The notes under the pieces are model-generated. The model searched no databases. It was given only the letters and a program-made list of their open reading frames with translations, and was not told the origin of the DNA. A stretch of 64,000 nucleotides of DNA. It comes from Amoebophrya sp. A120. Lineage: Eukaryota > Protista > Dinoflagellata. Each line of letters begins with the position of its first letter. The stretch's first letter is position 1. Made by a program: the position numbers and the translations under genes. Positions 1 to 64,000 of this stretch are shown here, piece by piece. The stretch lies in NCBI GenBank assembly GCA_905178155.1, contig CAJINV010000012.1, forward strand, positions 429,271 to 493,270. The letters run 5' to 3'.

Positions 1-1591
1 AACTGCTCCCAACTCTGCATTGGAGTACAACTTGCTCCCGGGAAGATCATCGATCCCAGCGCCCTGCTGCTCCTGACCCGTGGTCGTTGTGTCCAAAAAG
101 TCCTGGCTCGTCGCCCCCTGCAACATATTAGTACTGCTCTGTTGCGGGTGCATCAATCCCTGGTAGTCGTAGTTGTACAAACGCTCCTCATAATTGGAGA
201 CGAAGCTCGGCGCAGGAGGGTGGTGGGCGTCGATCGTGTTTTGAAGATGCTGGAGCATGGAGGTCGAAGAGTTGTGTAGTACTGCTCCCGGCGGAGGTGG
301 TGCCACAGGGGAAGCTCCGTATGTCATTTGATGAGATGTCCACCCGCGCTGGCGCTGGTGTGAAAGCTGTTAATATTATTGTTCTCGGGCACGCCGGAAA
401 ATGATGAATAAAATCCTACTTCATCTTCATTTACTGGGGAAGTAGGATCATATTCAGTGTAGCTGTTGTAGTTCCAGGAAGTTTTATTTTGCTGCGCCGC
501 AACATGATTAGGCTGATTGAAAAAAGACGACGCAGATGGAACTGGCGACGAAGCTGCTCCTCCTGCGAAGTAGCCAGTGGTCGACGCAGCCTGTGGTGCG
601 CCATACTCCGTGATCCTCTTCACCACAGTGCCGGAAGATGGATGTAACGGGACATTTTTGCACTGATAGGATGAGAACACGTCGCTGCAACGTTGGTTAT
701 TCCACTCAATGCTGGTGGACCCATCTTCATCCACCCACGGCTGGGATTGCGGTGAACGATCCTTGTCGCGGACAATGCTACTAGTGGCCAACATCTTGCC
801 GGGCCGTGGCTGGTTGAAGTGCAGCCGTGAGGACGAAGAAGTTGTTGGCCCGGGGGCTGTAGTGGTCGCGCCAGAAGTCGAAGCTCCTACCGCACCAGAT
901 TTTGCGGAAAACGCCGCGTGAAGATGTTGATCGCTGCCCAGTAGCTCATTTTCGATGCTAGTAGTGCCAGAACTGGAAGCCGGTCCTGTGGTTGACGCAC
1001 CTGCTGGGGCGGGCGTCACGGAAGTACTTGAGGTTGCAGTAGTTGTGGGCGCTGCTGGGGCGGGGGCTGGAGGAGAAGTAGTGCTGCTACTACTCTTTCC
1101 ACGTCGACCGTGACGGAACCTCGTCTTTCCACGTTTCCACGGGCGCGTCGTCGACCGTGACGGAAGATCCTCTAGTTTTGACCGCATCCTCGGTTTTAAT
1201 AGTATTTTCCGCGTCACCTTTTGCTGCAACGGGTACCAATTGTTGTACTTTTTTCGGGCTGAACTGAGCGTAGGTACCAGTGGCGAACAAGTTTTGCGGG
1301 TAGATGACTTGCTCGATTTGATTTGCGTACGAGGCCAGCTGGTCTCCTTGCTGTGCGTGCCCTATGCATTGCAAAAGTATCGAACTAGCACAGCTTGCAG
1401 ATACAAGTTGAAGTTTTCTCAATTACAAAAGTGGAGTGGTTTGGCAACATGCTGGAAAATGAGATATAAGATAGTAAATCTGTCACGCACGAGCACGACT
1501 ACAATCAATCACAGTACCTACGAGGGCGATAAATTTTGCAATGCGTATGCCCCCCTCCGTCGAACCTGTTCTTGAATCTCTTCGCGATTAT
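1..1591 (-). pseudogene. Low-complexity S/T/P-rich coding region with unresolved frame changes, running off the window start
   Basis: ORF 324..1229 is open up to the introner at 1363. A different frame is open over 1..325. A jumbled duplication lies at 1095-1165. I could not assemble one continuous frame. Confidence 0.4.
1363..1547. mobile_element. Introner, family A
   Basis: TIR TATGCATTGCAAAA / TTTTGCAATGCGTA; exact DR TGCCC at 1358-1362 and 1548-1552. Confidence 0.85.
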
Positions 1592-39817: not shown

Positions 39818-40023
39818 TATGGAGAGAAAAAAGTTTGTCACAGTCACTAACTTGCAGGTTTTGCATTACAAATTTTCTCAGCATCACAAACTTTCCTTGT
39901 ATTGCAGAAACACTAGGGAAATCCCTAATAAAGTTTGGCTGTGATGCATTTTTCCGCATGATAAACAATTTTGTATTGCAAGAATGCGCATGAGTGATCG
40001 TGACGAACTTTTTTTCTTTGATA
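39818..40023. mobile_element. Introner-type element, family J, outside coding sequence
   Basis: TIR TAT..A.A.AAAAAAGTT.GTCAC..TCACT; DR TAAAT/TAAAG; internal GCATTACAA and GCATCACAA motifs. Confidence 0.85.
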
Positions 40024-40027
40024 TAAA

Positions 40028-41142
40028 GTCAAGTAGTGATATTCTGGTACCGCTGCACGAGATAACTGAAGAAAAATTGTACCATAGAGATGGAACTGCT
40101 GCAACAAGTACAAGTAGCAGCGGCCTGAAGTCTGCATCGAGGGCGCAACGCCGTGACTTGCTACCCTCCGTCCACCCTTTTTACCCCTCGCGCGCACGAA
40201 GGGTGAAAAGGGGTAATCGTAATGAGGATGGAGTCGCGGCACTGTGCCTTGAGCCAAAGTCGTCCAGTGGTAGAGTGCGGCTCACTAAACCGCGGAGCCA
40301 CGACTTCGTTCTGGGCTCAACATACAACGCATCCGACCTGCTGACACCCATGGGCCTGCTGCATGATATTGACGCGGACCTGTGACTGTGGCAAAGACGC
40401 GAAGTCTGCGTCGCGACATTTTTGGCTCAATGCGCAGCGCCGTGACTTCCCACCCCCGGTCCCGTTTCACCCTTCGCGCGAAGAGCGAAAAGGGAATGGG
40501 GGCGCCAGGAGGTCGGGGCGTTGTACCTTGTTGAGCCAAAGTCGTTCAGTGCTAGGGGTCAGGTCACTGCACCTGAGAGCCACAGGTCTCAATATGCGGC
40601 GCGTCGTCCGAGCTCAGGCGGATCCAAGTGGCAACGCCACGAAGTCTGCACCGAGACACTTCATTTGGCCCAAGGTGCAACGCGGTGCATTGCTCCCCCC
40701 AGCCCCTTTTCTCCGTTTGCGCGCAAGCAAAGTCGGGGAAACGGACGGGGGCGGGGGAGTCGCAGCCGCGTGCGTGGGGGTTGGGTTGGGGTGGGATGGG
40801 TGGGCAGGGTGTTTCGAGTGGTTGCCAGCGGTGTCTCGCTACAGTAGCTACTGCATAAATCAAATCCGCCCCCGCAACGCTAGCTACTTTGCAGGAGCCT
40901 GAGGCCCACCCAGGCTTTCGATTATGGGCACTGCGGGTGGAGCCGGAGCGGCTCTGCTCCGCGCACCAAATAAAACTAACATCTGGCGCAGCCCGCGCCC
41001 GGATAGCAGCCGCGGGACATGATCTACCCCCGGTCACGGTCCGGCCGGCCGGCCGGCCGGGTGGACGTGACCTCCCCGGTCACGTCGAGTTTCTCTGTTA
41101 GTCTGTTCCTGGTCAAGTAGTGATATTCTGGTACCGCTGCAC
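40028..41142. repeat. GC-rich block of three foldback units bounded by 31-bp exact direct repeats
   Basis: GTCAAGTAGTGATATTCTGGTACCGCTGCAC at 40028-40058 and 41112-41142; units start GAAGTCTGC at about 40127, 40401 and 40641. Confidence 0.8.
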
Positions 41143-42029
41143 CAGACAATTGAGGATTGGTTTTTGTGCTGAAAACCTGTCTTCTACAAAACAACAACAC
41201 GCCTATGCCAATAAAGCCATCCTGGAGCTGTTATACTAGAAAATGACAATCAAGATTCCTACACGGGAGTGGTCGTACGGATCTTCGTCTGGAGTACTAC
41301 TATATATGTAGAGTTTCTAAGGATGATCCTCCATCTCCATCTACAGAGACAACGCATCTTCATCTGCTAGTTCGTTGCTTCGATATTCATGCAAAGTGCG
41401 GTTTTTGGACCTTTCTCACCTCGTGTTTGGTAGTCTCCGCCGAGGCCAGTGCTCTCTTCACGACACACATCTACGCTTGCTCGCCGCGTAGTTGTAGTAA
41501 CAGTTTTGGTATAGTGCTGTCATGGCCTCCTTTGCTTTTGAAGATGCTTCACTCATCATTAAGCGTCCAGCGCACGGAAAGAGCAATAGGTGGGGTAGCT
41601 CCCTCGTACCTACTAAGCCTTACTCGAGATCTTCTGGCAAAAACTAAGCGAGTGCGACCGCGACGTCGAGCGATACGACGGAACAAAACTAAGCTTATCG
41701 AGTGCTTCGAGATCGATGAGGGCACCAATGGCTGTGTCGCTATCTCACACAGAGGACACGACGAAAATTATCTGTAGAGCTAATTTCATCGACGCCAGTG
41801 TGTCGATGTGGAAAACAAGGACAAATTCTTGCATTTTTTTTTGCCGGAGGGGATATAAATGATTCGGTTTTTATGGTAAGTGGTAGAAGCACTGCAATGG
41901 CGTTGCGCTCCTTCCATCACTACCTTTCTACGTAGTACTGTTGTATTTTTTTTATCCTCGCAGAAGTCCTACTTCTCTCGCCACTTCAACTTTCCAAAAA
42001 ACTGCCGAGCGTTTGTACCTGTCGACCCC

Positions 42030-45000: not shown

Positions 45001-45184
45001 TAACACTGTTCACCGCTGTGTTCTTCACATTTCCCTTTCCCCCGCCGTCTTCAGGAGAGTGGCTCCTGTCAACATCGACCGGAGGAGCGTGCTCGTCGTG
45101 TTTCTGTGGTTGCTTTGATGTTCGTTCAGTGACAGTCGCGGAGCTAGTGGTTGTAGATCGGGCTCGAAGAGAAATTTGTCCCAT
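42030..45184 (-). CDS. Hydrophilic K/S/E-rich orphan protein with C-terminal coiled coil; two introners resolved, one junction (about 44040-44340) unresolved
   Basis: Junctions NEAA|PTKA (44597-44863) and KPFNK|DELVAL (43081-43960) restore the frame. Confidence 0.65.
43081..43960. mobile_element. Family-B introner expanded to 880 bp
   Basis: TATAACAATGCACAACTCC...GGAGTTGTGCACTGTCGTA; exact DR CTTTG; both arms match 47073-47288. Confidence 0.9.
43632..43848. repeat. 12-bp minisatellite (CCCCAGATATAT and variants), 18 units
   Basis: Directly visible; variant units occur in blocks. Confidence 0.95.
44597..44863. mobile_element. Introner, family C
   Basis: TATCAAATGCAAATATATCTGGGTC...GACCCAGACATATTTGCAATGAATA; exact DR TGCAG. 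Confidence 0.9.
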
Positions 45185-45666
45185 TTTCCGGTCGCGGTCC
45201 GGCTGGGGTTTTTTTTGCGGAATGTGAAAATGTAAGCCAACCCGAAAGTGTTGAAGCACTTTACAATGTATTAACAGACGAGTTTTGCAGAAAATCGCCC
45301 GAAAGATTGATTCGCGAGGGAAGATCGAAATGCTCTATACAAATATCGGACACACTACGAGGACCACAACTTCGTAAAAGACTACAAGAAGAAGTCAAGG
45401 CCTGTTGAAAGAAAGTGGAGATAAAGTTGATCATAAGTAGTTCCCTCGCGGCGTCAAGACTAACTGTGCAGATCGCAGAGCAAGTTATTGCAGGTGTTCA
45501 AGAGCGAAGATTGATTTTGATACTCTAAAAGTACCACGGTCTACCAAAATTTACACTAACACCCTGAATGCATCTTTTTCTATCGAGCTTCATTCTTCCT
45601 TATGTCTGGAGTGATAGATCTTCCACTAGCGAGTGTCTTCCAATTTCAGGGTGTAGCTTACATTCC

Positions 45667-48600
45667 TTATTTTTCGACAAAGAAAAGCTCGTCGGTATCG
45701 TCAGTAAAGTGGGCACCCCGGAGGTCCACTGCTTTAGCTTTTGCTGGTGGTGGTGGTTGAATTATCGGTGTAGAGCTTTTTGCTTCATCCAGGTCGTGAC
45801 CCTGCAAAGTACTAGACTCCTCTAGCTGCTCCCTCCCGGACCCACATGCTTTTCCACCCGCTTCGCTCTGCTCCGATGCTGGCGAGAGCGAGGACGACTC
45901 GACAACCGAAGGATCATCTACTTTCGACGTACTATCCCAACCGCTACCGCTCCACTCTGCTTTTCGCAAATAAACCATTTCGTACTGCAAACTTTCTTCC
46001 CACTCATCCGCATGCAGCTGCAATATTTTGTGCCAGGCGGAGGGAGTAATTTCTTCGTCCTGACTCGGCACCATTCGGCTCAACCTCCGGCAGGCGGGCA
46101 GGAGGCTGTGCAAGATTTGCAGCGCGTTCTGTTCCTGCTGTTTTAGTTCCGCGGCGGAGTAATCATAGCTTGTGGGAGAAGTTTTCATCATCTGGTTCTC
46201 GTAATAGGTGTCATAACTGAAACTGCTGGTCGTGTTTTTATCGCTAAGAAATCCCCGTGAATTCAGCCATCCCCGGCGAACACTGCCCAGTACTTTCCTC
46301 AAGGATGGGTTCTCGTGAAGGAATTCCACGAGACCGAGAATCTTGTTGCTCATCCTGTCGCAAGACGAGTTCGTCTTCGGGTCTGTGGCTCCTTCGTCGC
46401 CAGCAGCAGGTGCAGGCGCACGCCCCGGACTCATCAGATCGGAGCTCATCACAAACAGCCGCTGCCGCTGCGTGTGCTCCTCTTTGTGCTTGAAGCAAGC
46501 CGTGCTGATCTCGTGCCGCAGGAAAAGGAGCAGTGCGAAGGTTTGGTCCGTGATATCAAATGCAAAAATGTCTGGGTCTGGAAAGTTGTGATGCAGGTCA
46601 CTGAATAATAAGGACACTGTAATGCGCCGCCAAGCATGACAAGTTTCTCCACGCTTCTGTGTTGCGTATTCCGCATGAGAAACTGCGCGTTTGCATGACA
46701 GGCTAGAGGAGCTCGTCTTGGTTGCCACGCAATACAGGTCCCAGAGTCATGCCAGACTAGCATCACAAATCTCGCAATCTCCCAGTCCCAGACCCAGACA
46801 TTTTTACAATCCATACGTGAGCCTTTTCTGCAAGTTGTTCGCTCGGAGAAATTGCTTCAATAGTTTCTGTATGCATTGCAAACGTATCTCATTCGTAGTA
46901 ACTGCAGGCATGCTCCTACTATTTTGTTTATCTAAATTAGCATTACAAATTCCACTTTTCTACTTCTTGGGAAAATTTGTCATGCGATTTCCACTAGTAC
47001 GATACTTTTGCAATGCATATTCTGCAGCCTCGTGTCTTCGATGTCTTCCGCTTTCCGCTCAATGTACTCCTCTATGACAGTGCACAACTCCCCCTCTCCC
47101 TCATTTGCATAGCATTAACGGCAATACAATCATCAGCAAGATTGCCAGTCTTGCATGACAAATTTGCACTGGATTGTAGTGCTATTTGGGCTACCAGAAT
47201 TTTTCATGCAAACAGTGCCAAGAGGCAAAGGGTGGATTGAGTATTTTGCATGACAGATGAGGGGGAAGGGGAGTTGTGCAATGTCATATCTTCAATCTCC
47301 AAGTCGGTCCAATCCTCCAGGTAATCCTCGGGCACGTGCACCAGGGATTTCTTATCCGGAAGCAGAGTGCACGCTGCTTGTTGAAGCTTTTCCAGATCTT
47401 GGGGTGTCAGACACCAGGACGGGGTGGCATTTTGAAGCACCATGGGGGCGGTGGTCTCGACATTATCTTGGGACGCGAAGAGATCTTCCGGATTTTGATC
47501 GGCAGAAGCTGAAGTGGCGAAGCAATGCTGTTGGCTGTGAGGCGAAGACGAATTGGCTTGCAGGTCAAGGTGGACTTCGTGGTCAATCACAAGGGAAGCA
47601 GTTCTTGCGCCGGAAAAAGGAGGAGGGGACCCTGCTGCGACTACGCCCTCAATTTTTGCAGGACCAGAAACGGCTCTTCCGCTTGTGTTACTACAAGCTG
47701 CACTGCTGGCGCTAGTACACAGAGCCAGGCTCGCGAGGGCTGAAAAGACGGATGATGCTATGTTGGCTTCCACCGAAGGGACGGCGGTGGTTTTTTCCGC
47801 GCCAAACACCCCTGATGGTTCACTTGGCCCAACTTCTCCGATTGATTGCGTTACTGGGAATGCTGGACGACCCGCCGCACCAGAAGAGGTAGAGCAAGAG
47901 CTTTCAGGAAAACAGGCAGATGAGGACACAGGGAACTGAGCCGAGTTTTCGGCTGGTGTTTGCTCGACGTTGCTGCCAACTGCGTTCTCCGCCAAACGAT
48001 GCCCTGCATTCGACGCGGCCTGCTGCTGCTGCTCCGCAAAATTCCGCAAGAACGTCTCCGAAAATTTCACGCCGAACGAATGCGCCGCACGAGTTGTTCC
48101 ACCGTTCGGGAGATCAACCAATAAAAATCGTTTGTTCTCAGACAGAACGCTTTTGATGAACTTCCGTGCCATGCTTTGCGCCCTCTTGTCCGCCCGCAAG
48201 GAATCTTCCGTAAGAGTTTCGAAGCAATTCACTTTTCTGCGTCTCGCAGATTCTTTCAGTGCATCGAAGAGTGATGCTGTAGCATTATCATCCGTACTAC
48301 AAGAACTTGTTAGCGCTATTTTCAAGTTGTCACACAGCGGCTCGTTGTGTGCGCTGACTTCAACGCAGCACTCCAGAGCGTCCTCCCCACACTCGAGCAG
48401 CTCGCGGAAAAAGAGACACGCGATCGGGTCGCTTGGTTCGAAGTTCAACGAGTCTGTATTTTCCTCGCTGGCATTACTGATGTCGCCCCCTTGTGGCCCA
48501 CGCTCGCCGGACGATACTACAGCATGACCTGCGACTCCGTCTATTTTCGCGACAACTTCCAGTGGGAGCGCAAAAGATGAAGATGATCCGCCGGCTTGTT

Positions 48601-50677
48601 TGTCCCTTTCCTCGCCGATCAAGTGCCACTGGTTGAGGCCGGAATGCGGATCTTGACCATCATGTTGCCCGCCGTCGGTCCTGCAGCTGCTCGTGCTGCT
48701 GGTGGCCACCTGCTGCACAAACTGTCCCCCACTGATCCTGTTGATACAGCTTTCCGCGGCAGTAATACTCGTCGTCCCACAGGTTGTAGAAGTACTTGCA
48801 GATGAATTTATGCCGGTTTGCATTTTATTTTCGCATTCGTTCTGCTGCGGACAAAACGAAGCGCGTGCAGTCTTGAACGAATCCAAGGAATAGTTGTGGA
48901 ATGAAGTGTGCTCATGCTCCACAAACCGCTGGAGCCCCTCGTGCTGAAAATCTGTCTGCGGTGCAGCGACTGTGACGGACACGCCTGCTGTGGTGCTCAT
49001 GTGAAACTCTTCAGCCACGACATGGTCGTTGTATCGGCTTCTTTCTTGACCTCCTAGGACCACGGGAGCAAGGGGACGACGACCCACAGCAGGTGTAGAG
49101 AACATCTCGACTGGAGTAGCAGTCGCCTCACTGGGGAAGAGCAGTGGTGGTGTGGAGTTGAAGCGAGCATGAGACTCCCTCCCGGGGTAAAACTCGGGTG
49201 CCTCAGGACTGAGCAGGGGAGTACTAGACGAAAAGGACTTCTTTTTCTCCTCGTCGGCGCTGTTTGTAGTTGCAGCACAGGGTAAAAACGCACAAGCTGC
49301 ATGCTGTTGTGGCAAAGCCGCGCTCGGAAAAGTTCTCACGGATGATGATGATGCTGTGCGCGCTGGTGTTGATGACCCACCTTCCTGGCTATTCACGACA
49401 GCGACCACTGCGACGGAACTACGGAATTCAGGATCAGGAATTAGAATTGGTCTTTGTATCAACAGATTACTAGCATTGTCCTCATCTTCATCTTCACCCT
49501 CGCTGTCGTCATCATCTTCCGAATCCGAGGAACCGCTCCCGCTGGACAAATAGCTCATCAACTCTTCCGGCGCCACCTGTGCCATTTCCCTATCCACGCC
49601 CGAAAACAACCAACCCGGCCCATGCCCCCCGTAAAAGGCAGCTGTCTCGCACAGGAAAACCCGGAAGTGGTTGCGCTGTTTCTGGTGCATTGTGGGTTTG
49701 ACCACAAACCTGCCGTCGGCTTCGAGAATGTTCATGATTTTCTGGCGTGTGCCTCTGGTGTAGGCAGGGTGGCCGCTGAGCGGCTGTGGGTTTCTGTTGC
49801 TAGCATCATCTTGCAAGAACGGCGGCGCCATGCTAAAAGCCGTTCCCGACCAACCGTTCTCCTCCTTCACTAGCAGATGCTTCATCTGCGGGAAGTCAAT
49901 CAGCAAATCTTTGCTGTGCACCCACTGCTGCGTGCTTTTTTCCGCGGCCCTTGAGCTGGAGCTGCCCCGTCGAGAAGATGTTCTTTCTATTGAGGAAGTG
50001 CGAGAAATGGCCTGGGTAAGTAGGTGCTGCTGTCGCGGAGAAGAAGAAGCGCTCAGCCCCAAAATCGTTTTTCTCGCTTCCAGTTCGTCGTGAATCAACC
50101 TGGCGATCGGGTGCTCGGAGACAGCTGCATCGTGGGTTGTGGTAGTATCTTGTGCGCCGGGAACATACTGCGGGCGGAAAAACTCCTCCTGCGCAGCGAA
50201 AGTCGTGGCCACCTCTGTATTGAATGGCGACGCGCTGCTGTCGTTGCGCAGTGGAGTTGGCACAGATTCTAACGTTCTTGCAGTACCTGAACACTGCATG
50301 TTCCCGACAACCTGCGAGAGGAAAATATCAAGATCGGGGTGATTTGTACTTTCAGGCGCTCCTGCGTGGTTGTAGTGGTCCGCGTGAAGATAGGATGCAG
50401 AATTATCGGACAGGGAGCTATGCTGTACCTCCGGCACTACTTCCGGAGGGCTAAGATTCCTAGGATGTTCTGGAACTACACCAGCCGGCGGCACAACAAC
50501 ATGCAGCGGACAGGCTCGATTTTGATGATTCCATTGCTCAATAAGGTCCAGCGCCACGTGATCCATCTCAAGGATGCTTTGTGCCTCACACGGTCCTCCG
50601 GTGGGATGGCTCTGCTTGCGGCATTTTGCAGATATAACTCCTACACCTACGTCACGCACATCTTCAGCAGACGACAT
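45667..50677 (-). CDS. Large orphan protein (1455 aa, 4 exons) with a C-terminal family-3 module
   Basis: Three introners removed give 4368 nt: EIEE|YIERKAEDIEDTRLQ|KLLKQFLRANNLQKRLT|DQTFALLLFLRHEI...LLPACRRL...EWEESL. Confidence 0.85.
46554..46815. mobile_element. Introner, family C (inverted relative to 38622)
   Basis: Family-C TIRs; exact DR CGTGA. Confidence 0.9.
46870..47019. mobile_element. Introner, family A
   Basis: TATGCATTGCAAACGTATC...GATACTTTTGCAATGCATA; exact DR TTCTG. Confidence 0.9.
47073..47288. mobile_element. Introner, family B (inverted relative to 38057)
   Basis: TATGACAGTGCACAACTCCCC...GGGGAGTTGTGCAATGTCATA; DR TCCTC/TCTTC; 216 bp like the copy at 38057. Confidence 0.9.
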
Positions 50678-51298
50678 GGTGCTTGTTCCTCAGCGACATT
50701 ATAGAAGATGAAGACATAATATAGTAGAATGTCTAATATGTCAATTAATTCAGCTATGTCAATGCTCTTGCAAATGGAACGTCTAACACTTCGACGTCAA
50801 TCTCAATAGTGATAGTACTAGTGCTGCTACACTATTACGTGGTCCTTCATATTAAGTGCATACCACTGACGTCACCACTCATCTTCAACCTATCTTCAAG
50901 AAGGATCGCTGAGAAGTGAAAACTTATACCGTGCATCTTTCAACAATAAGATGAATCCCTCTCAAATAAATGAACTGTTGAGACATGAGAAACCAGATCC
51001 AACACATTGACCTTTCGCTTTCCTCCGCAGTAAAGAACAATGGAATATCTTCTCACTCACGACCTATCTGGAACGCACTACATCCGCTTCCTGCACTTCC
51101 GAAGCGACTGTCAAGTCCTCTCCAGAACCAGAGCCCCAGGCACCGGTCTGTCGGTGGAAAAATGTTCCAAAAACGTACTCGAATCCATTTCTTTGGCAAA
51201 GATTCATTTTTTATTTTTCGACTTTATTAGGATTCTTGTTCTAGTACATTCTTCGTGTTCTTTTTTTGTTCGCCGTATTGCGGATTCGAAGCTGCCAA

Positions 51299-53561: not shown

Positions 53562-56500
53562 TCAGTCCGTCTCGTCAACATCATCTCCATCCAAATCCGC
53601 CAGAAGCTGCGCGAATCGCTGCGCCTTTTCCATGTCCTGCTCGACAAAAGCGTCCGCAATCTTGATTTTGTACTTCTTCCGCTGCTTGCTTTTCCAATCC
53701 GAAAGTTGTATTGGTTCCGAAGAAGTACTAGCGCTCGGCCGTGCTACTTCTGGTTGTTGTAGTTGTTTCTGTTCAGGCAGAAGATTTTCTCCTTCGTGGT
53801 TGCAGTAGTTCTGATGGCTCATCCCATTGTAGCGGTAGCTCTGCAAATCTTGTTCATCCTCTTTCGGCGAATAATGATTTTTGCCGAACGCTAAGGTTTT
53901 ATTCGCTGTTCCAGATGCAGGAGCAGTGTTTTTGTTCCTTGAATCGCTTCTCAAAGCCGCAGTCGTGTCTTTTGTTGTTCTTGACGGCGCCCGCGGCGCC
54001 CATGTTGTGCTAGAAGGCGCCATCTGGAGGTTCCCGCGGCCACTGTCACACCAGCTGGTGTCTCCAGAGGAAAAAAACCAGCTCTGTGTTGGACCTGGTG
54101 TTGTGTAGTAGCGGTGGTCAGCAGTAGTTGTAGCTGCAGCTTCCGGCGCTCCTGCTGTGCGTGCTGTAGCTGTGCCTGCTGCGCTTCTCCATGATGTTGC
54201 ACCACAGTAGGAACTGTCAGAGGACTCGTCTCCTTGACACGGCTGCTGCACGACCCCCACCTCCTCCTGCCCCAGCGCTTCACCAAGCAGCTGTTGCAGT
54301 TCCAAGCTAGCCGCCCACTGCTCCGCGGAACCCGTAGCAGCCCACTGCTCGTCCAAGTGGAGTTCGTGGAGGAGCGTCGTCTGGATCTTTGCGACACTAC
54401 ACTGCGACTGACTAGCAACATCAGCTGAAAAACTTAAACTAAAACTGCTATCGCAATTATGCAGTGCTCTTGCGGTGGGGAGAAGGCGCAGAAAGTTTTC
54501 GTGCACTGCGGTACTCGTTGCCGCATCGTAGTATCCGTGTTTTTTCAACCACTTGCTCGCTTCGCGCCGAAGGCTGTTCGCGATAAACCAGGTGTCCCAC
54601 TGGTAAGCGTTTGCTTCGGGCCGTCGCTCCAGGCCGTCGTGTGTCAAATTCCAAGCTTGCACTTTGTTTACTAGAATTTCCTTCGCCGCAATGCTGTAGA
54701 AGTTCGAGGCTGGGCCCATCAAGTCCAGTGTCATCAGGATCATTTTCAGCTTCCAGTCAGGAACCTCGTTGATTTGCTTTCTGAGTTGCAGGGCTTGCAA
54801 AAACGTAGAGTCAATGTCGTTCACGTTCTTCGGCACTGCTGTTGCAGATATTGTACTAGCTGATGGTGTTGCAGATGTATTTGCTGATGTGGTGCTGCTC
54901 ATGTTGCTCCATGGGTGGTCACACGGGGAGCCATAATGTTGATCACCAACAACATAATTTCCCTGCGATGAAGATGGTGCAACGTCCGCCGCCAGTGCTG
55001 CGGAAAGCAGCTGCTCCAGTTCCAGACTCGAAGCCCACTGCTCAGCTGCGTTTTCCTCTTGGAGCTGCGTCCGCTGCTGTGTTGAGTTGTTGTTCCAGCT
55101 CGATTTTTCCGCCTGGTTGTTGTGCCGACCAGTAGTAAAGCTAGTACTTGAAGATGAATCGAGTCTTCGCGCAGCGGGTAGAAGATGGAGAAATTCCGCG
55201 TGTGCCGCACCTCCGTTCGACGCCGGATCAACTCCGTGTGGTATGAATTGCAAAATATCGTCCTCGTAGTATTGCAATACAAATTCGCTCAGCATGATGA
55301 GAACTTAAATTTGACATGCTGATTTATCTTGAAGAAGGTATTTGTCTTGCATGATTGCGATTACTACCGGTGCGAAGACGTTTTTGCACAGGATATGTGT
55401 TTTCATCCACTTATTCGCCTCCAGCCGGTACCGCCCGGGGACGTACCAGGCGTCTATCCTCTGCAAAAGTATCGTACTCGTAGTAATCGCAAACATGCAT
55501 TACAAATCGTGCTCTTAAGGTAAATCCGCATTACAAATTTTATTTCTCATACTGAGAAAATTTGTAACGCATGACGTCGCCTCGGTAGTGTCTTGGCCTC
55601 GGTACGCCACTACAAGTTGGCGCACCGAGGCTAGAAGAAGTTTCTTCAGGGCGCACATACGAAATGGCGCACCGAGGCCAAAAATGCAAGTTTTTCGGAA
55701 TTGCCGCCTCGGTGCACCGAGGCTGACGGCCTCGGTGCGCCAACTTGTAGTCACGAACGAAGCAGCAGACGGGCGGAACACAGGGGGGGGTGGGGGGGCC
55801 CGTCGGCTACGTCGCGAGACCACGCGCGCGTGCCTTGTTGGCGGGTAGAAAAACAAAGCCCGGACCTTGGCCCGCGTTCGAGGGCAAAGTAAAAAACGCA
55901 GCAGGCGAAGGCGCCCGCGTCACCAGGGACAGGCGTGCGAAACTAGTCTGGGGCCACCGACTTGCGCGGCGCGTCGCGCAAGCATGCGATGGGCAAAGGC
56001 GCGCGCGGGCGTACATCATGCGGGCGCGAGGAATGACAGAAGCAAGTACACAGCGAAGGCGCATAATGTTTCAAAGGCGGGCGCTTCCCAGCGAAGTTTT
56101 TGCGCGCCGCCTCGGTGCGCCAAAATGTATTGTGAAGGCGCGCCGCTACCATACGAATTTTGTAGGTGGGAAAAAAGACATACTTTGGCGGGCTCGGTGC
56201 TGCCATACGTTACAAACCGCACCGGGCTCGGTGCTGCTTTTTGGCGGGTTTTCTCGATGCAAAAAGCGCGAAAATTGTAACGCCCCACATACGATTTGGC
56301 ATACCGAGTCGTATGTGCGTACCTAGGCCACGTCATGCATTTATACGAGTACGATACTTTTGCAGTTCATAGCGTCCCACTGGTAACCGTTTCCGCTCTA
56401 CCGTGAGGAAAAATCTCCCCTCCCCATATCGAAAAGGAAATTTGTTATGCTGATTCGTGATCAAAAATCAGCTTTGTCTTGCGCACAAGGCAAACGGCAC

Positions 56501-58594
56501 CCATGTGGCGCACTGTACAGCGACTCTGTCATGCGCTTCCGTTTATGTCAGACTTGTTTCTCATGCTCAGCTGCTAGCCGGATGCGTAGTAGTAGTACCC
56601 CAATGGGCTTACTAGCCGGATGCGTAGTACCCCAATGGGCTTAGAACAATATGCCATGTCCTTCTCTTGCCGCAATACAGAGCTCATTTGTGTACACAAA
56701 TCCAGCAACACAAATTGTCTTGTGAATATGGGGTGGGGGCTTTTTTCACTGTGATACACTCTCACCTCCCCGCATCGAGTCAGGATTTACGAGCTTCCAC
56801 CTCCGCACCGTGTCCACGAGAATCCCCTTTGCCGCGATGTTGTAGTGGTGGGAATTTAGGCCTATCAAATCTTGCGACATCAACACGAGGCGCAATTTCG
56901 GATCCGCAACTTCGTTGATTTGGTTCCTAATTTGCCGTGCGGCGGTGGACGAGAGGGTAGAGTCAAGGTCTTTCGACGTTTCATCATTTGGGTCGTGATT
57001 TTTGAGACTGCAGCTCCCGGAAGATGGAAAGGAGCCGACGGAGGAAGATTTACTCTGCGAGTGTTGTGAGTGCACTTGGGGTTGTACTACACGTACAGAT
57101 GAAGAAGAGCCAGACGTGGGAGGACAAAAATGATCCACTTGTATTTCATCTTGTGTGCCCGCCTGCTCGGAGGTTGTTGTAAAACTTCTGTCTGCAGCCT
57201 CGCCTGCTGAAATAAAAGCAGCTTGTCGTGATCTTAGTCCGTCGGATTGGTGTTCCTGCAGCACCAAAAGTGGATCACGCGCAACTGACTTCTTCCGTCT
57301 CTGTTGCAGATCCCAGCTCTCCTCCCATTCCTCCCGATACAGATTGTGCACACCAGACTGCCACACTGCCGGGACCCGTTGCGCTTTATGCATTCTGCAA
57401 AAGTTTCGTACCTCTAGTAGAAAACGCATGACAAAGAATTTTATTTCTGAAAGACGATATTAATTGGATTTCTCATGCGGCTCCTTCAGACAAAGAAGCA
57501 CATCTCGTCCTGTGATGCTGCATGACTATACATTTTTCATTTTCACACGAGAAGTACGAAACTTTTTCACAGGATCATACGCTTGCTCCGGAAACAACTC
57601 GACCAGCCGTCTGCAAGCGGGCAGGATGTTGTAAAAATCTTTGAGCTATGCTGTGCAAAAGTATCGTACTCGTATAAATGCAGGTCTTGCATTACAAATT
57701 TCTCTATCAAGGCAAATCAGCATTGCAAATTTTATTTCTCATGCTGAGAAAATTTGTAATGCATTTATACGAGTACGATACTTTTGCAGTTCATATGAGC
57801 GCTTCCTCCTCCTCCTCTTTTTGTGCTTTTGCTCCTTGCTCCTCTAAAACTTCGCGCAGCCAAGGAGCAATTTGTATTGCATCAGATCTAGTTCTTCCCG
57901 CACGAGGGTCCGGGTCGTGCACGTGCTGTTGCGAAGGCAAAAAGCCGAGGTTGCGGAGCCACGGAATCAGCTGCTGGCGATAGTGCGCAATCCACGCTTG
58001 TTGCTGCGAGTCCAGGCTGTCCGCGTTCATGAGCAGTGCCCGCAGTTTCGCATCCGCGATGGCGTTGATCGTCCTTTGGATGAACAAAGCAAGGGCGAAA
58101 GATGGACTCTCCGAGTCCAATCCACCCACCCGCATCATGGCATCCACTTGTCGGAGAAGCGCGGTTTCTTGCAGTGTCTTTTCATTTTGCTTTTCAATGT
58201 ATGCTTTTCCTACTCTTGTTCTTCTTGATTTTGACTTCAGTACCAATTTTCCCCGCGCATTGTAGTACCGCAATCTTCTTTCTTCGATCAGCTTTTTGCT
58301 TGCTTTTTCCAGTCGCGTCAAATCGTCATCTTGTTGCCCTTGTCCGCGGCCTTCAGCCAGATGTTGAGATGAAGTGGCGGGAACCAGTGCTACAGGAGCA
58401 GGTCCTGTGTTAATATCATCAGCGGGAGAAGAAGTAGTTTGAAACGCACTGGTACAACCGCAGTCAGCATCTGCTGCGCTGTCGTTTGCTGAAGATGCCG
58501 CTGCCGGCGAAAGCTGCCAGTGCTGGGGATTATGCGAAGTTGCATTTTCCCTTTTGTGCTGATGTTCTACTGGAGTTCGGAACATGCTCTTCAT
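53562..58594 (-). CDS. Family-3 orphan protein (1078 aa, 6 exons, three module copies)
   Basis: Five introners removed give 3237 nt: EAL|KDFYNILPACRRL..EQA|QRVP...GES|GNGYQWD|AWYV...WMKT|HGVD. Confidence 0.9.
55242..55395. mobile_element. Introner, family A
   Basis: TATGAATTGCAAAA...TTTTGCACAGGATA; DR TGTGG/TGTGT. Confidence 0.85.
55455..56371. mobile_element. Family-A introner with a nested MITE
   Basis: TATCCTCTGCAAAAGTATCGTACTCG...CGAGTACGATACTTTTGCAGTTCATA; exact DR GCGTC. Confidence 0.9.
55573..56334. mobile_element. 762-bp GC-rich MITE unrelated to the introners
   Basis: TIR GACGT(C/G)GCCT(C/A)GGTA; flanks ACGCAT/ATGCAT; many GCCTCGGTG / CACCGAGGC subterminal repeats. Confidence 0.85.
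56399..56756. mobile_element. Introner, family D, with an internal duplication of about 32 bp (56574-56643)
   Basis: TACCGTGAGGAAAAATCTCCCCTCCCCATAT...ATATGGGGTGGGGGCTTTTTTCACTGTGATA; DR CGCTC/CACTC. Confidence 0.85.
57387..57579. mobile_element. Introner, family A-like
   Basis: TATGCATTCTGCAAAAGTTTCGTAC...GTACGAAACTTTTTCACAGGATCATA; exact DR CGCTT. Confidence 0.9.
57647..57795. mobile_element. Introner, family A (inverted near-copy of 38919-39067)
   Basis: 149 bp; exact DR TGAGC. Confidence 0.95.
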
Positions 58595-58625
58595 TTTCAA
58601 TTTTCTGAACAAAACAAGTATCGCT

Positions 58626-58777
58626 ACCGCTTTCGTGGTGAAAGAACACGGAGCGGTTCGACCCTACAGGCAATTGATTACCGCTTTCGTGAAAGAACAC
58701 GGAGCGGTTCGACCCTACAGGCAATTGATTACCGCCTTCGTGAAAGAACACGGAGCGGGTCGATCCTAACGTCAATT
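58626..58777. repeat. 51-bp tandem repeat, 3 units, just upstream of the gene start
   Basis: TACCGCTTTCGTGAAAGAACACGGAGCGGTTCGACCCTACAGGCAATTGAT units; a single homologous copy lies at about 63075-63122. Confidence 0.9.
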
Positions 58778-59373
58778 GATAAAAATGTGGCAGAGTCGTA
58801 GGAAATTCCAATTGGAACAGCAGTCATGAAGTTCTTAACTGAAGGACGGAGAACGAAAATCAAGGCACGGAATAAAAATTACGTCTCCTCTCGACTTCAC
58901 CAAGTAGCGTGATTCTTATCGACATTAACGATCCAAAACACCGAGCGAAAGCGACATGGAGTGTTGAACAGGTTTATTTGACTACAAAGCACCCTGCTAC
59001 GACCTGATGCTTTCAGTTTCACTCCTTGCGCGACTTCTGTTTCGACACAGACGTGTCGCATATATAATCGTAATGAAATACGTACGAGTTTTGCTTTCAC
59101 AACGTCACGCCAGGACGTCCGCAGCCGATTTCTTGATGAAATTGTACATCGTTCCAAGTCTCTGTCTCGTGGTCGTTACTTTCTGTTTCTTTGAAAGTTC
59201 TGTCAGCAATGTTTGCGGTTGCGCTTCCTAACGAAGAGTAGTTTCTTGGAAATTTTAACAGGGTTATTGGAAGGACACGACGGTGAAGTGTTCGTGTTCC
59301 GAGGGAAGATGGAGGATTCTCTACAACTAGAATTGGATTCATAGACTCAGACGCTCGTCCAAAAATTCTTTTA

Positions 59374-62300
59374 TCAGTCCGCCTCGTCAACATCTTCATC
59401 CAAGTCCTTGAGAAGCTGCGCGAATCGCCGCGCTTTAGCCATATCCTGAGCGACAAACGCGTCCGCACGCTTGATTTTGTACTTCTCGCGCTGCTTGTTT
59501 TTCCAATCCGAAACCCCCTCGTGGTCTTCTTGGGGGGTCATTTGTTCTTGTCTCTCCGAAGTACAGAAGCTTGACCCCATGGTGTCTGCTTGTTTCTGTT
59601 GCTCTCCAGAGAGAAGTTCTATTCTGAGTAAAAACGTCCCCACCCCAGAGTCAAGATGGTAAATCTGCTAGACAAATCAACCAGCTTTGGCTGTTTCGCA
59701 TGACAAGTTTGTCCTTGTAGTGCGATCCTGTTTAGGTAGTTCAGCAGCATCACAGATCTAGCATATCATGCTGATTATAGCATCACAAATCGCAAAACAC
59801 GACTAGAAAATGCCTCTCATGGGGCTCAGCATGAGAAACTTTTTTGGCATGCAGATTCACATGACAACTCTGGTGTGGGGACATTTTTACTCAGGATAAG
59901 TTCTCTTCCAACTTCGCGGTTGCGATCTTGCTGGGTCATGATCCTCCCAGTGGTCTCATCGTGGCTCCGCAACTGCTGCTGATGCAGCTCTGTCGGCAAA
60001 CTATAGAGTGAAGAGCTACTATAACTATTCCCGCCGACGACATCCTGCGCCAGCACTTGGGCGAGCAGCTCCTCCAGTTCCAGGCTACAAGCCCACTGTT
60101 CCGCATGCTGGTCAATTAGGAGCTGCATTCTTTGCTGTGTTGCGGAAGTAGTAGAGAAGCCCCCCAAACCAGAACCCGCCTCGTCATTCTCATTCTCCGT
60201 GGATGATGTTGATGCAGTACTACTAGTCCAATGATCCGCGGCCGCTCGCGCGACGGGTAGAAGTTGAAGGAATTTTTCGTGTTCACTAGGACTCAAATCT
60301 GCGTCGTACCCGTGCGTTTTCATCCACTTACCCGCTTCGTGCCGAAGCCTCGCTGCGATGAAATAACAGTCCCAGTTGTAAGCGCTTGCCGTTCTACTTC
60401 GCTGGCAGAACTCAGGTACCAGTTGCCAATTCAGCGCTTTTTCTACCAGAATGCCCTTCGCCGCGATGTTGTAAAAGTTGGATTTTGGTCCGATCAAATC
60501 TTGCGTCATCAACACGAGGCGCAATTTCGGGTCCGTAACTTCGTTGATTTTTTTTCTGATTTTCAGTGCCGCGGACCACATCAAAGTTGTCGAGATAAAC
60601 TTGTCCACCTCTGCATCTACTTGTTGTTCTAACGTTGCATCGTAGTAATCTGGGTCGTCGTTCTTCCCGGAAGACGGAGGAGCATAGTACGGTCCCGTTT
60701 CTTGATGCGGAATTCTTGTCACTTCCTCGTTGCGCCGTTGTTCTTCGGCTAAAGATAAGGAAGACGAAGAGTCTTCATCAGAAGACGTGGGACCGTAAAA
60801 CTCTGCTATTTTATTTGCTCCTGCCTGTGCTGTTGTTGTTCCGCTTCCGTCCGTCTCTAGTGTTGCAAATGGTTCCCGTTCCGGTTGTTCTCCCCGTTGA
60901 TGATGCACTAGATGTTGCTGCATCAAAAGTGATGTATCAACTTCACCCGCATTTCTAAGATGCTTCCTCCTTTTCTCTTGCAGATCCCAGCTCTCCTGCC
61001 ACTCCTTCGGATACAGATTCACACCAGGCAGCCACGCATTTGGGATGCTTTTCGCTTCGGGATGAAACAAGTGGAACAGCCGTCTGCAAGCCGTATGGGG
61101 GTGTCAGGATCGGAATCGACAAAATCGAAAAACTTGTAATGCATGAAATGTAGGGCGCGCAAGGTCTGTGCTGGGGCGTAGGCAAATGAGACCGATTCCA
61201 AGACTGCTTCGGGGAAGACGATGCGCTGCCAGGGTAGCAGTACAGAAGCCGTCTTCTTTGCCCAAACAGCATGACAGAGTGGATTTTGGCGCTCCCGAAG
61301 TTTGTCATGCACCACTTGAAAACTGTGGCTCCAACTGGTATCGATTTTATGCATCACAAATCATTTCGATTTTGTTGATTTCGATCTGACAGTTCCATAA
61401 GCCGGGAGGATGTCGTAAAAATCCGCCACCGCTTCCTCCACCTCCTGCGAAGACTGCTGCTTATGGAAGCGTCAGGTTTGAAATCGACAAAGTTGAAAAG
61501 AAATGATTTGTCATGTATAAAATGGATACCAGTTGGAAGACCAATTTCTAAGCCGTGCATGACAAATATGGGTAGAGCCGAAATCCAGTTTGTAGTGCTG
61601 TTTGGGTAAGGAAGACGCCTTTTGTCATGCTACTTTCGCAGCTCTATTTCTACCCCGCAACAGGCTTACAATCTGCCTCACTTGCCTACTCTGCAAGCCA
61701 GGCACTTTGTGGGCTGCATTTTTTGCGTGACAAACTATTTCAACTCTGACGATTTCAATCCTGAGCCTGACACTCCCATACTGCTCCTCTTGCTGGTACA
61801 GAAAGCCTCGGTTGCGTAACCAAGGATGCAGCTGGCTGCGGTAGTGCGCAATATGGCGTTCTCAACTGTTACGCTCTCAACTGTTACATAAATTTGTAAT
61901 GCAAGAATAGCAAAAGTCAAAGGGGGGACGCTGCACATTTAGCATTACAAATTTCGCACAGATTTAGGCACTGTTCAGCCCTTCGCAAATTTGTCATGCG
62001 AAGCAGCTTGATCGTCTGGATCGGATGACGATAGTGCTTTTGCATGACAAATTCATGTAACAGCTGAGAATGTAACGTTTGAGAACCCCATACGCAAGGA
62101 AAGATCCGTGTGGGTTCGTGTCCACAAAAAACGACAGATGGAGGGAGAGAGCAATCTTGCTTGTTTTGTTCTCCGGTTGCTGAAGACTCCTACTTGTTGC
62201 TGTGCTACTAGAGAAACCAGAGGCGGCGGCACGTGTTTGCTTCAGCCTGTCGGAGGCCAAACTGTCGGCGTTCATGATATCCACTGCAAAAGTATCGTAC

Positions 62301-63032
62301 TCGCACTACCCTGTTTTTTTTCTAGGCAAACCCACATTACAAATCAAGTTTGTCATGCTAAGTCAATTTGCAAAATAAATGCAATTTAAACTAAGAACGT
62401 TACTTTTGCAATGCATACATGACTAGCGTTCGCAATGTCGGATCCGCGATGGCGTTGATTTCCCGTCGGACAAACATATCCTGTGAAAAAGTATCGCATT
62501 CGTAGTAATTATCGCGGTCATGCATTACAAATCTCCTTCCCAAGGCAAATCAGCAAGAGAAATTCCATTTGTAGTAATGCTGAGCGAATTTGTATTGCAA
62601 TTACTACGTAGTACGATACTTTTGCAGTGCATAAAGCAAAGCAAGGGCAAAGCAGGAACTCTCCAATCCACCAAACCGCATCATGGTATCTACTTTATTC
62701 CGGAGAAGAGTTGTATTTGGAGACGCCGAATAGAAGTTGGTCCCGCTTGTTTTTTCCGAATGCGATGACTTGTGCGGGTTTAACAGCCCCGCATCCGTTC
62801 CTCTTCTCTCTTCGATCAGCTTTCTGCTTACTTTTTTCAGTCGAGCTAAGTCAGCAAGAACAACTTCAGCCGGCTCTACATTGTCAGCGGGAGTTTGAAA
62901 CGCACCACTGCAGCTAGCATCTGCTGCCTTGTCGTCGTTGGCGGACGATGCGGGCGAAAGCCACTGGGAATGCGAAGCCGAACCCGGCGTGTTTTGCTGT
63001 TGCACCGGACTTCGGAAGTAGATGCTGTCCAT
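59374..63032 (-). CDS. Family-3 orphan protein (728 aa, 7 exons), tandem paralog of 53562..58594
   Basis: Six introners removed give 2187 nt: LALL|VRREINAIADPTLRTLVM|NADSL...FLA|HYRSQLHPWL...EEQ|QSS..DFYDILPA|CRRL...GRE|LLSG; near-identical C-terminus SDWK.KQR.KYKIK.ADAFV.QDM.KA.RFAQLL.DLD. Confidence 0.9.
59620..59898. mobile_element. Introner, family F
   Basis: TATTCTGAGTAAAAACGTCCCCAC...GTGGGGACATTTTTACTCAGGATA; exact DR AGTTC. Confidence 0.95.
61094..61399. mobile_element. Introner, family I
   Basis: TATGGGGGTGTCAGGATCGGAATCGAC...GTTGATTTCGATCTGACAGTTCCATA; exact DR AGCCG. Confidence 0.9.
61462..61780. mobile_element. Introner, family I
   Basis: TATGGAAGCGTCAGG...CCTGACACTCCCATA; exact DR CTGCT. 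Confidence 0.9.
61852..62092. mobile_element. Introner, family E
   Basis: TATGGCGTTCTCAACTGTTAC...GTAACGTTTGAGAACCCCATA; exact DR CGCAA; interior similar to 29018-29253. Confidence 0.95.
62278..62417. mobile_element. Introner, family A
   Basis: TATCCACTGCAAAAGTA...TACTTTTGCAATGCATA; exact DR CATGA. Confidence 0.9.
62477..62633. mobile_element. Introner, family A
   Basis: TATCCTGTGAAAAAGTATCG...CGATACTTTTGCAGTGCATA; DR AAACA/AAGCA. Confidence 0.9.
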
Positions 63033-64000
63033 TTTCAATTTTTCGTGATAAAATAAGTGTCACTATTGATACATAGCGCTTTCGTGAAAGTCCACAAAGC
63101 GATTCGATCCTAAAGTGAATTGTTTTTTGTGAGATGTAAATTATTTTGAGCAGGCTGCACCTGACTCCAAGCATGACGAAAAACGAATCGAGGCCCGGAA
63201 AAACTACGTCTCTCTCGGTGTGACCAAGTGATGTGGTTCAATTCGTGCTTTACTCGACGACAAAGGAATGCGTGCGATCCTCAAACTAAGGTACTAACTT
63301 ACTATCATCACGAACTTCATATACTTGCCTCACTCTCGGATTCTGAAAGACTAGGACAAACACGACCCACAAACCGAATAAACGTTTATTTGTGAAGATG
63401 AAACATTGCATGATGAAATTGATGGAACCCTAAGAGCGCGAGCGACATGGAAAGAACAGGCTTTGACAAGATCTTCTTCCTTAGGGCTTGTGCTTTCACC
63501 TCATGGGGTCCTGTTCGGGAGGCAAGTACAACTTGTATTGATCGAGACGTGCTGTCGCATGGTAAAAGTACGGGGCTATCCTTATCTTTCCGCCGGTTCA
63601 TTTTTTCAACAGTAAAAAACATGAAATCATGAGGCGTTCATTTGGGATATTTTTTTTGTTTTTTTGATGCTTTTTCTGTAGGGCGCCATAGTGTGACGCT
63701 AGTGTCGTCGTGGTAAATATGAAATTCGATAATAGTTGGGGTCGTCGTGTAAAACGGTGCCCGTAAGGCAAAACAGCCTTACGAATGATCAATTAAAAGA
63801 TTGAATTCCAGTACTTATAGTAGAAACAAGCGCTCTCTCGCTGGCGACCCCAAGCAGCGAGAGCCTGCGCTTCAGATTTTCGTTAGTGACGGTTGTAACA
63901 GCTGCGATGAATCATTGTATTTGTAGATGTTTCTTCTACACTTCTTGTCGCTGCTATACGGTGCTGATGAAAAATGATATATTTCAGCAACCGCCTTTTG

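What the first reader, a model, noticed from the sequence alone, without database searches (positions are those of the whole stretch)
53562..63032. Adjacent paralogs share none of their 11 intron positions
Seen: paralog 1 is interrupted at EAL|K, EQA|Q, ES|G, WD|A and KT|H; paralog 2 at LL|V, VM|N, LA|H, EQ|Q, PA|C and RE|L. The aligned positions are uninterrupted in the other gene, for example WDCYF...WMKTHGY in paralog 2 and INAIADAKLRALLMNADSL in paralog 1. Each gene supplies the empty site for the other, which is direct evidence of massive intron gain after duplication and validates the +5 rule.
Basis: seen in the sequence. Interest (0 to 1): 0.8.

Follow-up and report, generated by a model that had tools for sequence, protein, structure and literature searches.

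The report
Twin genes, separately gained transposon introns
Two neighbouring duplicate genes of the marine parasite Amoebophrya A120 carry 11 small transposon-like introns at non-matching positions, most likely gained separately long after the duplication; this is the expected footprint of an already published intron invasion, although the cut likely falls inside the duplicated target rather than at the element's edge.

Summary
Observation confirmed. Two minus-strand paralogs carry 5 and 6 TAT...TA inverted-repeat elements with 5-bp target duplications (TSDs); no position is shared. Removing element+5 gives 1078- and 728-aa proteins identical to the public Amoebophrya A120 models, and RNA-like contigs match these lengths to the base. 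The elements are the published A120 introners, at ordinary density (2.0 per kb against 1.42 genome-wide).

Non-sharing alone does not separate gain from loss and is the null expectation (0.016-0.06 shared sites expected). Gain is shown otherwise: intronic TSD letters follow the host gene, not the paralog, 13 to 1, and an older internal repeat in paralog 1 is a second empty site. TSDs differ by about 5% against dS 0.46-0.83, so gains are likely late and clustered; dS gives no constant rate.

The +5 length holds. Its placement does not: seven mismatched TSDs fit one cut, 1 base before and 4 after the element. One decayed intron does not fit. Unreviewed notes of this scan report the same register on other A120 DNA. 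No outgroup gene was found. Known system; low to moderate interest.

The parts
53562..58594 (-). Paralog P1, 6 exons, 3237-nt CDS, 1078 aa; = CAD7964564.1 / GSA120T00006862001.1 (Amoebophrya sp. A120); no Pfam family
   Evidence: RNA-like contigs X3 rec 9 and X6 rec 14
59374..63032 (-). Paralog P2, 7 exons, 2187-nt CDS, 728 aa; = CAD7964566.1 / GSA120T00006863001.1; no Pfam family
   Evidence: RNA-like contig X3 rec 12
57647..57795 (-). I1, 149-nt TIR element, TSD GCTCA/GCTCA (EAL|K); about-150-nt family, 90% to the element at 38919-39067
57387..57579 (-). I2, 193-nt element, TSD AAGCG/AAGCG (EQA|Q)
   Evidence: spanned whole by DNA-like contig X1 rec 3
56399..56756 (-). I3, 358-nt element, TSD GAGTG/GAGCG (ES|G); transcript keeps the upstream letter at TSD position 4
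55455..56371 (-). I4, 917 nt: a 149-nt family element with a nested insert of about 768 nt (55568-56335); TSD GACGC/GACGC (WD|A)
55242..55395 (-). I5, 154-nt element, TSD ACACA/CCACA (KT|H)
62477..62633 (-). J1, 157-nt element, TSD TGCTT/TGTTT (LL|V); transcript keeps the upstream letter at position 3
62278..62417 (-). J2, 140-nt element, TSD TCATG/TCATG (VM|N)
   Evidence: spanned whole by X1 rec 7
61852..62092 (-). J3, 241-nt element, TSD TTGCG/TTGCG (LA|H)
61462..61780 (-). J4, 319-nt element, TSD AGCAG/AGCAG (EQ|Q); 72% to J5 in opposite orientation
61094..61399 (-). J5, 306-nt element, TSD CGGCT/CGGCT (PA|C)
59620..59898 (-). J6, 279-nt element, TSD GAACT/GAACT (RE|L); 284-nt skip in X3 rec 12 and X6 rec 16
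54963..56955 (-). P1 repeat copy A (aa about 430-612), closest to the single block of P2; carries I3-I5
54264..54815 (-). P1 repeat copy B (aa about 662-845), older and intron-free: second empty site for I3-I5
58638..58790 (.). Three 51-nt units upstream of P1, homologous to 63084-63134 upstream of P2: shared non-coding flank, fits a DNA-level tandem duplication

Best explanation
P1 and P2 are diverged neighbouring paralogs of Amoebophrya sp. A120 whose 11 introns are A120-type introner elements at unshared positions, most likely inserted one by one long after a tandem DNA duplication and removed from the RNA as element plus five bases, likely by a cut 1 base before and 4 bases after the element. 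Shown: elements, TSDs, unshared positions, identity with the public gene models, removal length in RNA-like contigs. Inferred: (1) a transposase acting in trans makes a 5-bp staggered cut with no base preference and inserts a non-autonomous TAT...ATA element; (2) new copies tend to land 35-100 nt from older ones; (3) the transcript keeps TSD letters 1-4 of the upstream copy and letter 5 of the downstream copy, so the intron reads N-U-A-U...A-U-A-N-N-N-N; (4) the most likely cutter is a relaxed major spliceosome that takes U+2/A+3 from the element in the register of a GU donor, with the terminal hairpin bringing the ends together. Step 4 is untested.
For: Spliced proteins identical to CAD7964564.1 and CAD7964566.1. 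Contig offsets equal the predicted ones for I1+I2, I3+I4+I5, J1-J5 and J6; 11 of 12 census elements in 37000-48000 show a joint of exactly element+5. Perfect 5-bp TSD at 166 of 220 elements picked without a TSD condition, perfect 4-mer 1, perfect 6-mer 0. Polarity: 13 own, 1 paralog, 1 neither of 15 differing letters, p=0.0009; copy B is the outgroup by dS (1.3-1.4 against 0.83) and triplet sites (14:7:6, p=0.036) and is empty. One element family sits in both genes at different sites (I1, I4, I5, J1, J2). Two decayed introns with little or no TSD are still removed, so TSD identity is not kept up by splicing. Register: kept at least 1 (37867, I5), at least 3 (47073, J1), at least 4 (I3), at most 4 (38057, 38389); all nine predominant A120 non-canonical sites in Table S4 of PMC7789003 begin N-T. 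No GT or AG bias at 96 oriented targets.
Against: No ortholog or outgroup gene was found, so presence/absence across strains is untested. The runs are only guessed to be RNA, are contigs, and come from 2 samples of 1 study. In one search the junctions are confirmed in groups, by length, not one by one (except J6). Letters within a TSD are not independent: by site 7 favour own, 1 is mixed, 3 are uninformative; without I3, J4 and J6 it is 8 to 1 (p about 0.02); P2 alone is 5 to 1. The lower bound of 4 rests on one site in one sample, the bracket pools different families, and no DNA run was laid on 37000-48000. The decayed intron 44016-44315 has only 1-2 bases after its inferred end, not 4. MFE folds pair the very ends (+2 or +3 with -5 or -6) in 6 of 10 introns folded. 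No transposase and no spliceosome test.
Confidence: 0.82

Rival explanations
1. The pre-duplication gene had all 11 introns and each copy lost a complementary subset (precise excision or recombination with cDNA).
For: Two-gene presence/absence cannot exclude it; no outgroup gene found; at J1 one intronic letter matches the paralog.
Against: Intronic TSD letters follow the host 13 to 1; TSDs differ by 3 of 55 against dS 0.46-0.83; copy B is also empty at I3-I5; 11 complementary losses would be needed.
Confidence: 0.04
2. One gene is an intron-stripped retrocopy, so the other gene's introns are older than the duplication.
For: A retrocopy also yields no shared positions; the test for P2 alone is weak (5 to 1).
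Against: Tandem position and homologous upstream non-coding DNA; P1 sites give 8 own and 0 paralog although P1 copy A has more lineage-specific changes than P2 (73 against 48); both genes hold the same element family.
Confidence: 0.05
3. The elements are cut out of DNA (IES-like) in some stage or cells, and the contigs that lack them are DNA.
For: The tool only guesses X3-X6 to be RNA; 440 joints were not shown; the one run on record as RNA laid 0 reads.
Against: X3 and X6 drop to depth 0.74 and 0 between the genes where X1 has 55.7; their contigs end near the gene ends; X1 contigs span I2 and J2 intact; the cut is asymmetric along the coding strand; A120 introns were validated by RNA-seq in PMC7789003.
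Confidence: 0.04
4. Gain is right, but removal is by a hairpin-guided, spliceosome-independent nuclease and ligase (as proposed for euglenid nonconventional introns), or the cut position varies by family.
For: No base bias at either junction; U1 snRNA not found in A120; one decayed intron off register; the paper calls the sites variable.
Against: Seven mismatch sites from several families share one solution that puts U at +2 and A at +3; nearly all spliceosomal proteins are present; end pairing is not predicted in 4 of 10 folds.
Confidence: 0.3

Closest known systems
Introner elements (IEs) of Amoebophrya sp. A120 (Farhat et al. 2021, PMC7789003; sections 10, 11, 12, 16, 32 and supplement text read, figures not seen)
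   Same: Same organism and annotated genes; non-GT-AG introns with terminal inverted repeats, short direct repeats and the TAT + 7 + AAA motif; strain-specific positions already read as post-speciation gains.
   Different: The paper compares A25/A120 orthologs, not paralogs; gives repeats of 3-5 nt and leaves the border unknown. Here the TSD is 5 bp and the cut is bracketed to 1 before and 4 after. [quoted passage not shown]
A120 introners in Gozashti et al. 2025 (PMC12130899; passages read)
   Same: States that diverse TIR transposons cause massive intron gain in A120, up to tens of introns per gene.
   Different: Passages seen give no cut register and no paralog test.
MITE-type introners of Micromonas pusilla and Aureococcus anophagefferens (as described in PMC11282704, PMC9860276 and PMC7789003; passages)
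   Same: TIR + TSD elements; one junction is taken from the TSD.
   Different: Those use canonical or near-canonical splice sites; here neither junction dinucleotide is fixed.
Non-canonical introns of Fritillaria borealis and euglenid nonconventional introns (PMC11282704 section 6)
   Same: Transposon-derived, TIR and TSD at the ends, species-specific positions, asymmetric pairing of the ends in euglenids (+4..6 with -8..-6).
   Different: AG-AC/AG-AT ends in Fritillaria; pyrimidine|purine junctions and circular products in euglenids; here predicted pairing +2 with -5.
IS3EU/GingerRoot DNA transposons (PMC10045372; passages)
   Same: TA..TA termini.
   Different: Usually 6-bp TSDs; here 5 bp (0 of 220 perfect 6-mers); no transposase to compare.

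Membership tests
Amoebophrya A120 introner elements | Host is Amoebophrya A120 and the site is an annotated intron | tested here: met
   Spliced proteins identical to CAD7964564.1 and CAD7964566.1
Amoebophrya A120 introner elements | Non-GT-AG ends | tested here: met
   0 of 11 are GT-AG in the 1-before/4-after register; 5 of 11 begin GT
Amoebophrya A120 introner elements | Inverted repeat of 8-20 nt between the two ends | tested here: met
   10-22 of 24 ungapped matches at 11 of 11
Amoebophrya A120 introner elements | Direct repeat of 3-5 nt over the borders | tested here: met
   5 bp; 8 of 11 perfect, 3 of 11 with one mismatch
Amoebophrya A120 introner elements | IR motif TAT + 7 nt + at least 3 A | tested here: met
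   Strict at 7 of 11 5' ends, 9 of 11 with 0-3 nt slack; J4 and J5 lack the A run
Amoebophrya A120 introner elements | Repeated family | tested here: met
   10 of 11 have hits over 97 nt or more in the window or the metagenome loci; I2 only 49 nt; X1 laid 15,798 contigs, concentrated on element bins
Amoebophrya A120 introner elements | Removed from RNA | tested here: met
   Length accounting exact in contigs of guessed-RNA runs X3 and X6, one sample; not raw stranded reads
MITE (non-autonomous TIR transposon) | TIR, TSD, short, multi-copy | tested here: met
MITE (non-autonomous TIR transposon) | Cognate autonomous transposase | not testable with these tools
   No whole genome held; no DNA-transposase family among the 12 window ORFs and exons scanned
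IS3EU/GingerRoot | TA..TA termini | tested here: met
   11 of 11 (TA ends were a search condition, supported by TSDs and RNA lengths)
IS3EU/GingerRoot | 6-bp TSD | tested here: not met
   0 of 220 perfect 6-mers, 166 perfect 5-mers
Canonical U2 spliceosomal intron | GT...AG ends | tested here: not met
   G at intron +1 in 31 of 96 and AG at the 3' end in 7 of 96 oriented targets, near background
Canonical U2 spliceosomal intron | Lariat intermediate, spliceosome dependence | not testable with these tools
   Needs raw reads or bench work

The most novel reading that the evidence does not exclude
A120 introners are removed by a fixed ruler: cut 1 base before the element's TAT and 4 bases after its ATA, whatever those bases are. 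Any insertion with a 5-bp duplication, in either orientation, is then a perfect intron at birth. The apparent chaos of A120 splice sites would reduce to one code (N-U-A-U ... A-U-A-N4) for a spliceosome without U1, and mismatched TSDs in paralog pairs would become a genome-wide clock and polarity test for intron gain.
Probability: 0.6. Interest if true: 0.55.

Novelty: already known. Interest (0 to 1): 0.3.

Why it matters
The headline (paralogs share no intron position) is what a published, strain-specific introner invasion predicts for any gene pair older than the burst, and both gene models are already public. The useful additions are methodological and mechanistic: a TSD-letter test that polarises gain against loss without an outgroup, evidence that the gains are late and clustered rather than clock-like, and a candidate fixed cut position for a splicing reaction whose borders the describing paper left unknown. 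The last makes the open question of how A120 splices without U1 directly testable.

Tried and rejected
No whole genome is held for this window, and the metagenome loci have no searchable record. Outgroup search: 66 pattern matches in metagenome contigs, none confirmed; 0 hits for the P1 last exon at 306-975 aa; only the two genes themselves; the one further hit among 1.84 billion representatives (P0003, E 4e-4) is a tandem-repeat protein and was rejected as repeat-driven. No Pfam family in 5 P1/P2 exons; the Atlas gave no answer. Open frames as proof of +5: rejected, +2 and +8 are also open. Full-length MAFFT alignment misplaces J6 because of the P1 repeat; segment alignments were used. Codon effects of 20 single TSD mismatches in oriented metagenome elements (11 synonymous, 9 not, no stop) did not decide the register. 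Selection for GT or AG in the target: not seen. Joint 38016-46554 joins two related elements and was dropped; joint 39816-41112 was left out of the register count because a 31-nt repeat makes its upstream side ambiguous. Roy et al. 2023 (Curr Biol) is not held; its preprint does not mention Amoebophrya in the main text and its supplements are closed. Searches listed no paper whose title, abstract start or read passages state a fixed A120 cut position or a paralog test; figures 3 and S19-S23 of PMC7789003 and the datasets of PMC12130899 were not seen and may show the register.
Full report
1. Observation. Each is an element of 140-917 nt that starts TAT and ends ATA (I3: GTA), with terminal inverted repeats and a 5-bp duplication (8 of 11 perfect, 3 of 11 with one mismatch). 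Removing element+5 gives CDSs of 3237 and 2187 nt with a single terminal stop (1078 and 728 aa). Removing element+2 or +8 also leaves open frames, so frames alone do not fix the length. The proteins are paralogs (E 2e-102). In segment-wise codon alignments 0 of 11 positions coincide; the nearest pair is 26 nt apart. J4, I3 and J6 align poorly, but their counterparts lie inside long single exons of the other gene.

2. What it is. The two spliced proteins are letter for letter the public Amoebophrya sp. A120 proteins CAD7964564.1 and CAD7964566.1, so the gene models are already annotated. The element ends match the motif published for A120 introner elements, TAT + 7 + AAA (strict at 7 of 11 5' ends, 9 of 11 with slack). 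A window census lists 35 candidates, of which I kept 30 and added I5 (31 in all); removing them with five bases opens long frames in other genes. A scan of metagenome contigs returned 142 loci with the same families (the 80 listed are all JACKZZ01 contigs). Of 220 distinct elements chosen there without a TSD condition, 166 have a perfect and 39 a 4/5 5-bp TSD; perfect 4-mers number 1 and 6-mers 0. In 96 of 270 elements that could be oriented by an open frame, the target shows no base bias.

3. Removal from RNA. Of 11 runs listed, four are guessed to be RNA. X3 record 9, X6 record 14 and X3 record 12 have piece offsets identical to my exon model: 62 nt between the pieces around I1+I2, 76 nt around I3-I5, 358 nt around J1-J5, and a 284-nt skip at J6. 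This confirms groups of junctions by length; X3 and X6 are one sample. X1 contigs span I2 and J2 intact, and cover the intergenic stretch where X3 and X6 fall to 0.74 and 0. X9 laid 0 reads. On 37000-48000, 15 of 17 joints were shown; 11 are at census elements (11 of 12 in that stretch) and each skips exactly element+5.

4. Where the cut falls. Mismatched TSDs show which copy the transcript keeps. The upstream letter is kept at position 1 (37867; I5), position 3 (47073; J1) and position 4 (I3). The downstream letter is kept at position 5 (38057 and 38389, 4 of 4 runs, 2 samples, 1 study). One solution fits all seven: four letters from upstream, one from downstream, so the intron is 1 + element + 4 and begins N-T-A-T. 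All nine predominant A120 non-canonical sites in Table S4 of PMC7789003 begin N-T, which fits, though aligner choice may shape that table. Against: the lower bound rests on I3 in one sample; families are pooled; no DNA run was laid there (no other letters were reported); and of two decayed introns one (45219-45670) has an unambiguous 5' cut one base before a TAA end, while the other (44016-44315) has only 1-2 bases after its inferred 3' end. So '+5' is right as a length and likely wrong as 'element plus the downstream copy'. At J1 the paralog has TTC (Phe), like the discarded copy, while the transcript has CTT (Leu): the empty site cannot settle the register.

5. Gain or loss, and when. Three other lines do. 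(a) Where the host exon and the paralog differ inside the TSD (15 letters), the intronic copy follows the host 13 times, the paralog once, neither once (p=0.0009; 8 to 1 without the three weakly aligned sites; P1 8 to 0, P2 5 to 1). An intron older than the duplication should follow the paralog about half the time. Decayed introns without a TSD are still removed, so co-evolution of the copies is not required. (b) P1 holds an older second copy of the core block (dS 1.3-1.4 to the others against 0.83; triplet sites 14:7:6, p=0.036), empty at I3-I5. (c) The elements belong to multi-copy families, one of them present in both genes at different sites. dS between the genes is 0.83 (0.68-1.02) on all 622 aligned codons, 0.61 on 355 and 0.46 on 210 better-aligned ones (NG86 with JC correction), whereas TSD copies differ by 3 of 55 (95% interval 1-15%). 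The insertions are therefore likely confined to the later part of the time since duplication. They are also clustered: 6 of 9 internal exons are 66 nt or shorter (p=1e-4). A single gain rate from dS would mislead. Density, 2.0 per kb, is close to the genome mean of 1.42.

6. Mechanism. Shown: anatomy, removal length, unshared positions. Inferred: mobilisation in trans by an unknown transposase with a 5-bp staggered cut; a fixed 1-before/4-after cut (about 0.65); a relaxed major spliceosome reading U+2/A+3 with help from the hairpin (about 0.5; U1 snRNA was not found and nearly all spliceosomal proteins were). Rivals: reciprocal loss, retrocopy origin, DNA-level excision, and a spliceosome-independent or family-variable cut.

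7. Against what is known. PMC7789003 (abstract, passages, sections 10, 11, 12, 16, 32, supplement text; figures not seen) describes these elements, reports that 98.6% of position-conserved A25/A120 introns are canonical, infers gain after speciation, and leaves the borders unknown. PMC12130899 (passages) reports massive introner gain in A120 with tens of introns per gene. PMC11282704 (passages, section 6), PMC9860276, PMC11453091, PMC10045372 and bioRxiv 10.1101/2020.10.14.339549 (passages) give context; PMC13326754 had no hit for my terms. The TA..TA ends resemble IS3EU/GingerRoot, but the 6-bp TSD test fails. I reached the register reading; unreviewed notes of this scan report the same register on other A120 pieces. 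They are not independent evidence.

8. Verdict. Real, correctly described, and an expected result of a known system. Interest 0.3. The most novel open reading is the fixed cut code (probability 0.6, interest 0.55). No outgroup gene was found, so the strain test stays open, and protein function is unassigned.

Noticed in passing
window 28498-32804 (-) and 42033-50689 (-): Two distant members of the same protein family (P3, 928-aa frame after removing 6 elements; P4, extended to about 2030 aa by RNA joints across 7 introns), sharing the LPACRRL and EIN..DP.LR motifs.
   Followed up: partly
window 29462-29742 against 57647-57795: A P3 element sits at the same aligned nucleotide as I1 of P1 (20 nt before the Pro codon of LPACRRL) but is of another family with another TSD: possible parallel insertion; my rough chance estimate is about 0.05, and its removal was not checked in RNA.
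   Followed up: partly
loci L001-L142 and window genes: Spacing between neighbouring elements peaks at 34-99 nt (69 of 143 gaps in 25-99 nt, 11 in 100-174 nt, only 3 under 34 nt); 14 of 25 internal exons in the window are 75 nt or shorter. Short loci favour short gaps. Fits insertion beside an element-sized nucleosome, local hopping, or a minimum exon size.
   Followed up: partly
window 55568-56335: An insert of about 768 nt with its own inverted ends (GACGT...ACGTC) nested at the ATGCAT site of the 149-nt element that forms I4; the 917-nt composite is still removed exactly.
   Followed up: partly
window 39817-41111: RNA-like contigs skip 1295 nt: a census element plus about 1.08 kb bounded by a 31-nt direct repeat, without GT-AG.
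   Followed up: no
window 44016-44315 and 45219-45670: Two decayed elements with little or no TSD left are still removed in RNA-like contigs; the second hides an in-frame TAA.
   Followed up: partly
window 16197-21809 (+): Copia-type gag and pol frames (Retrotran_gag_2, rve_3, RVT_2), free of TAT...ATA elements.
   Followed up: no
window 62093-62272: P2 has about 46 extra residues against P1 between J2 and J3; the 180-nt exon is fully kept in the RNA-like contig by length.
   Followed up: partly
loci L001-L080 (JACKZZ01 contigs): A metagenome assembly holds the same element families at up to 95% identity to I1, so a relative of A120 with this system exists outside the reference strain's assembly; no gene shared with the window was found.
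   Followed up: partly
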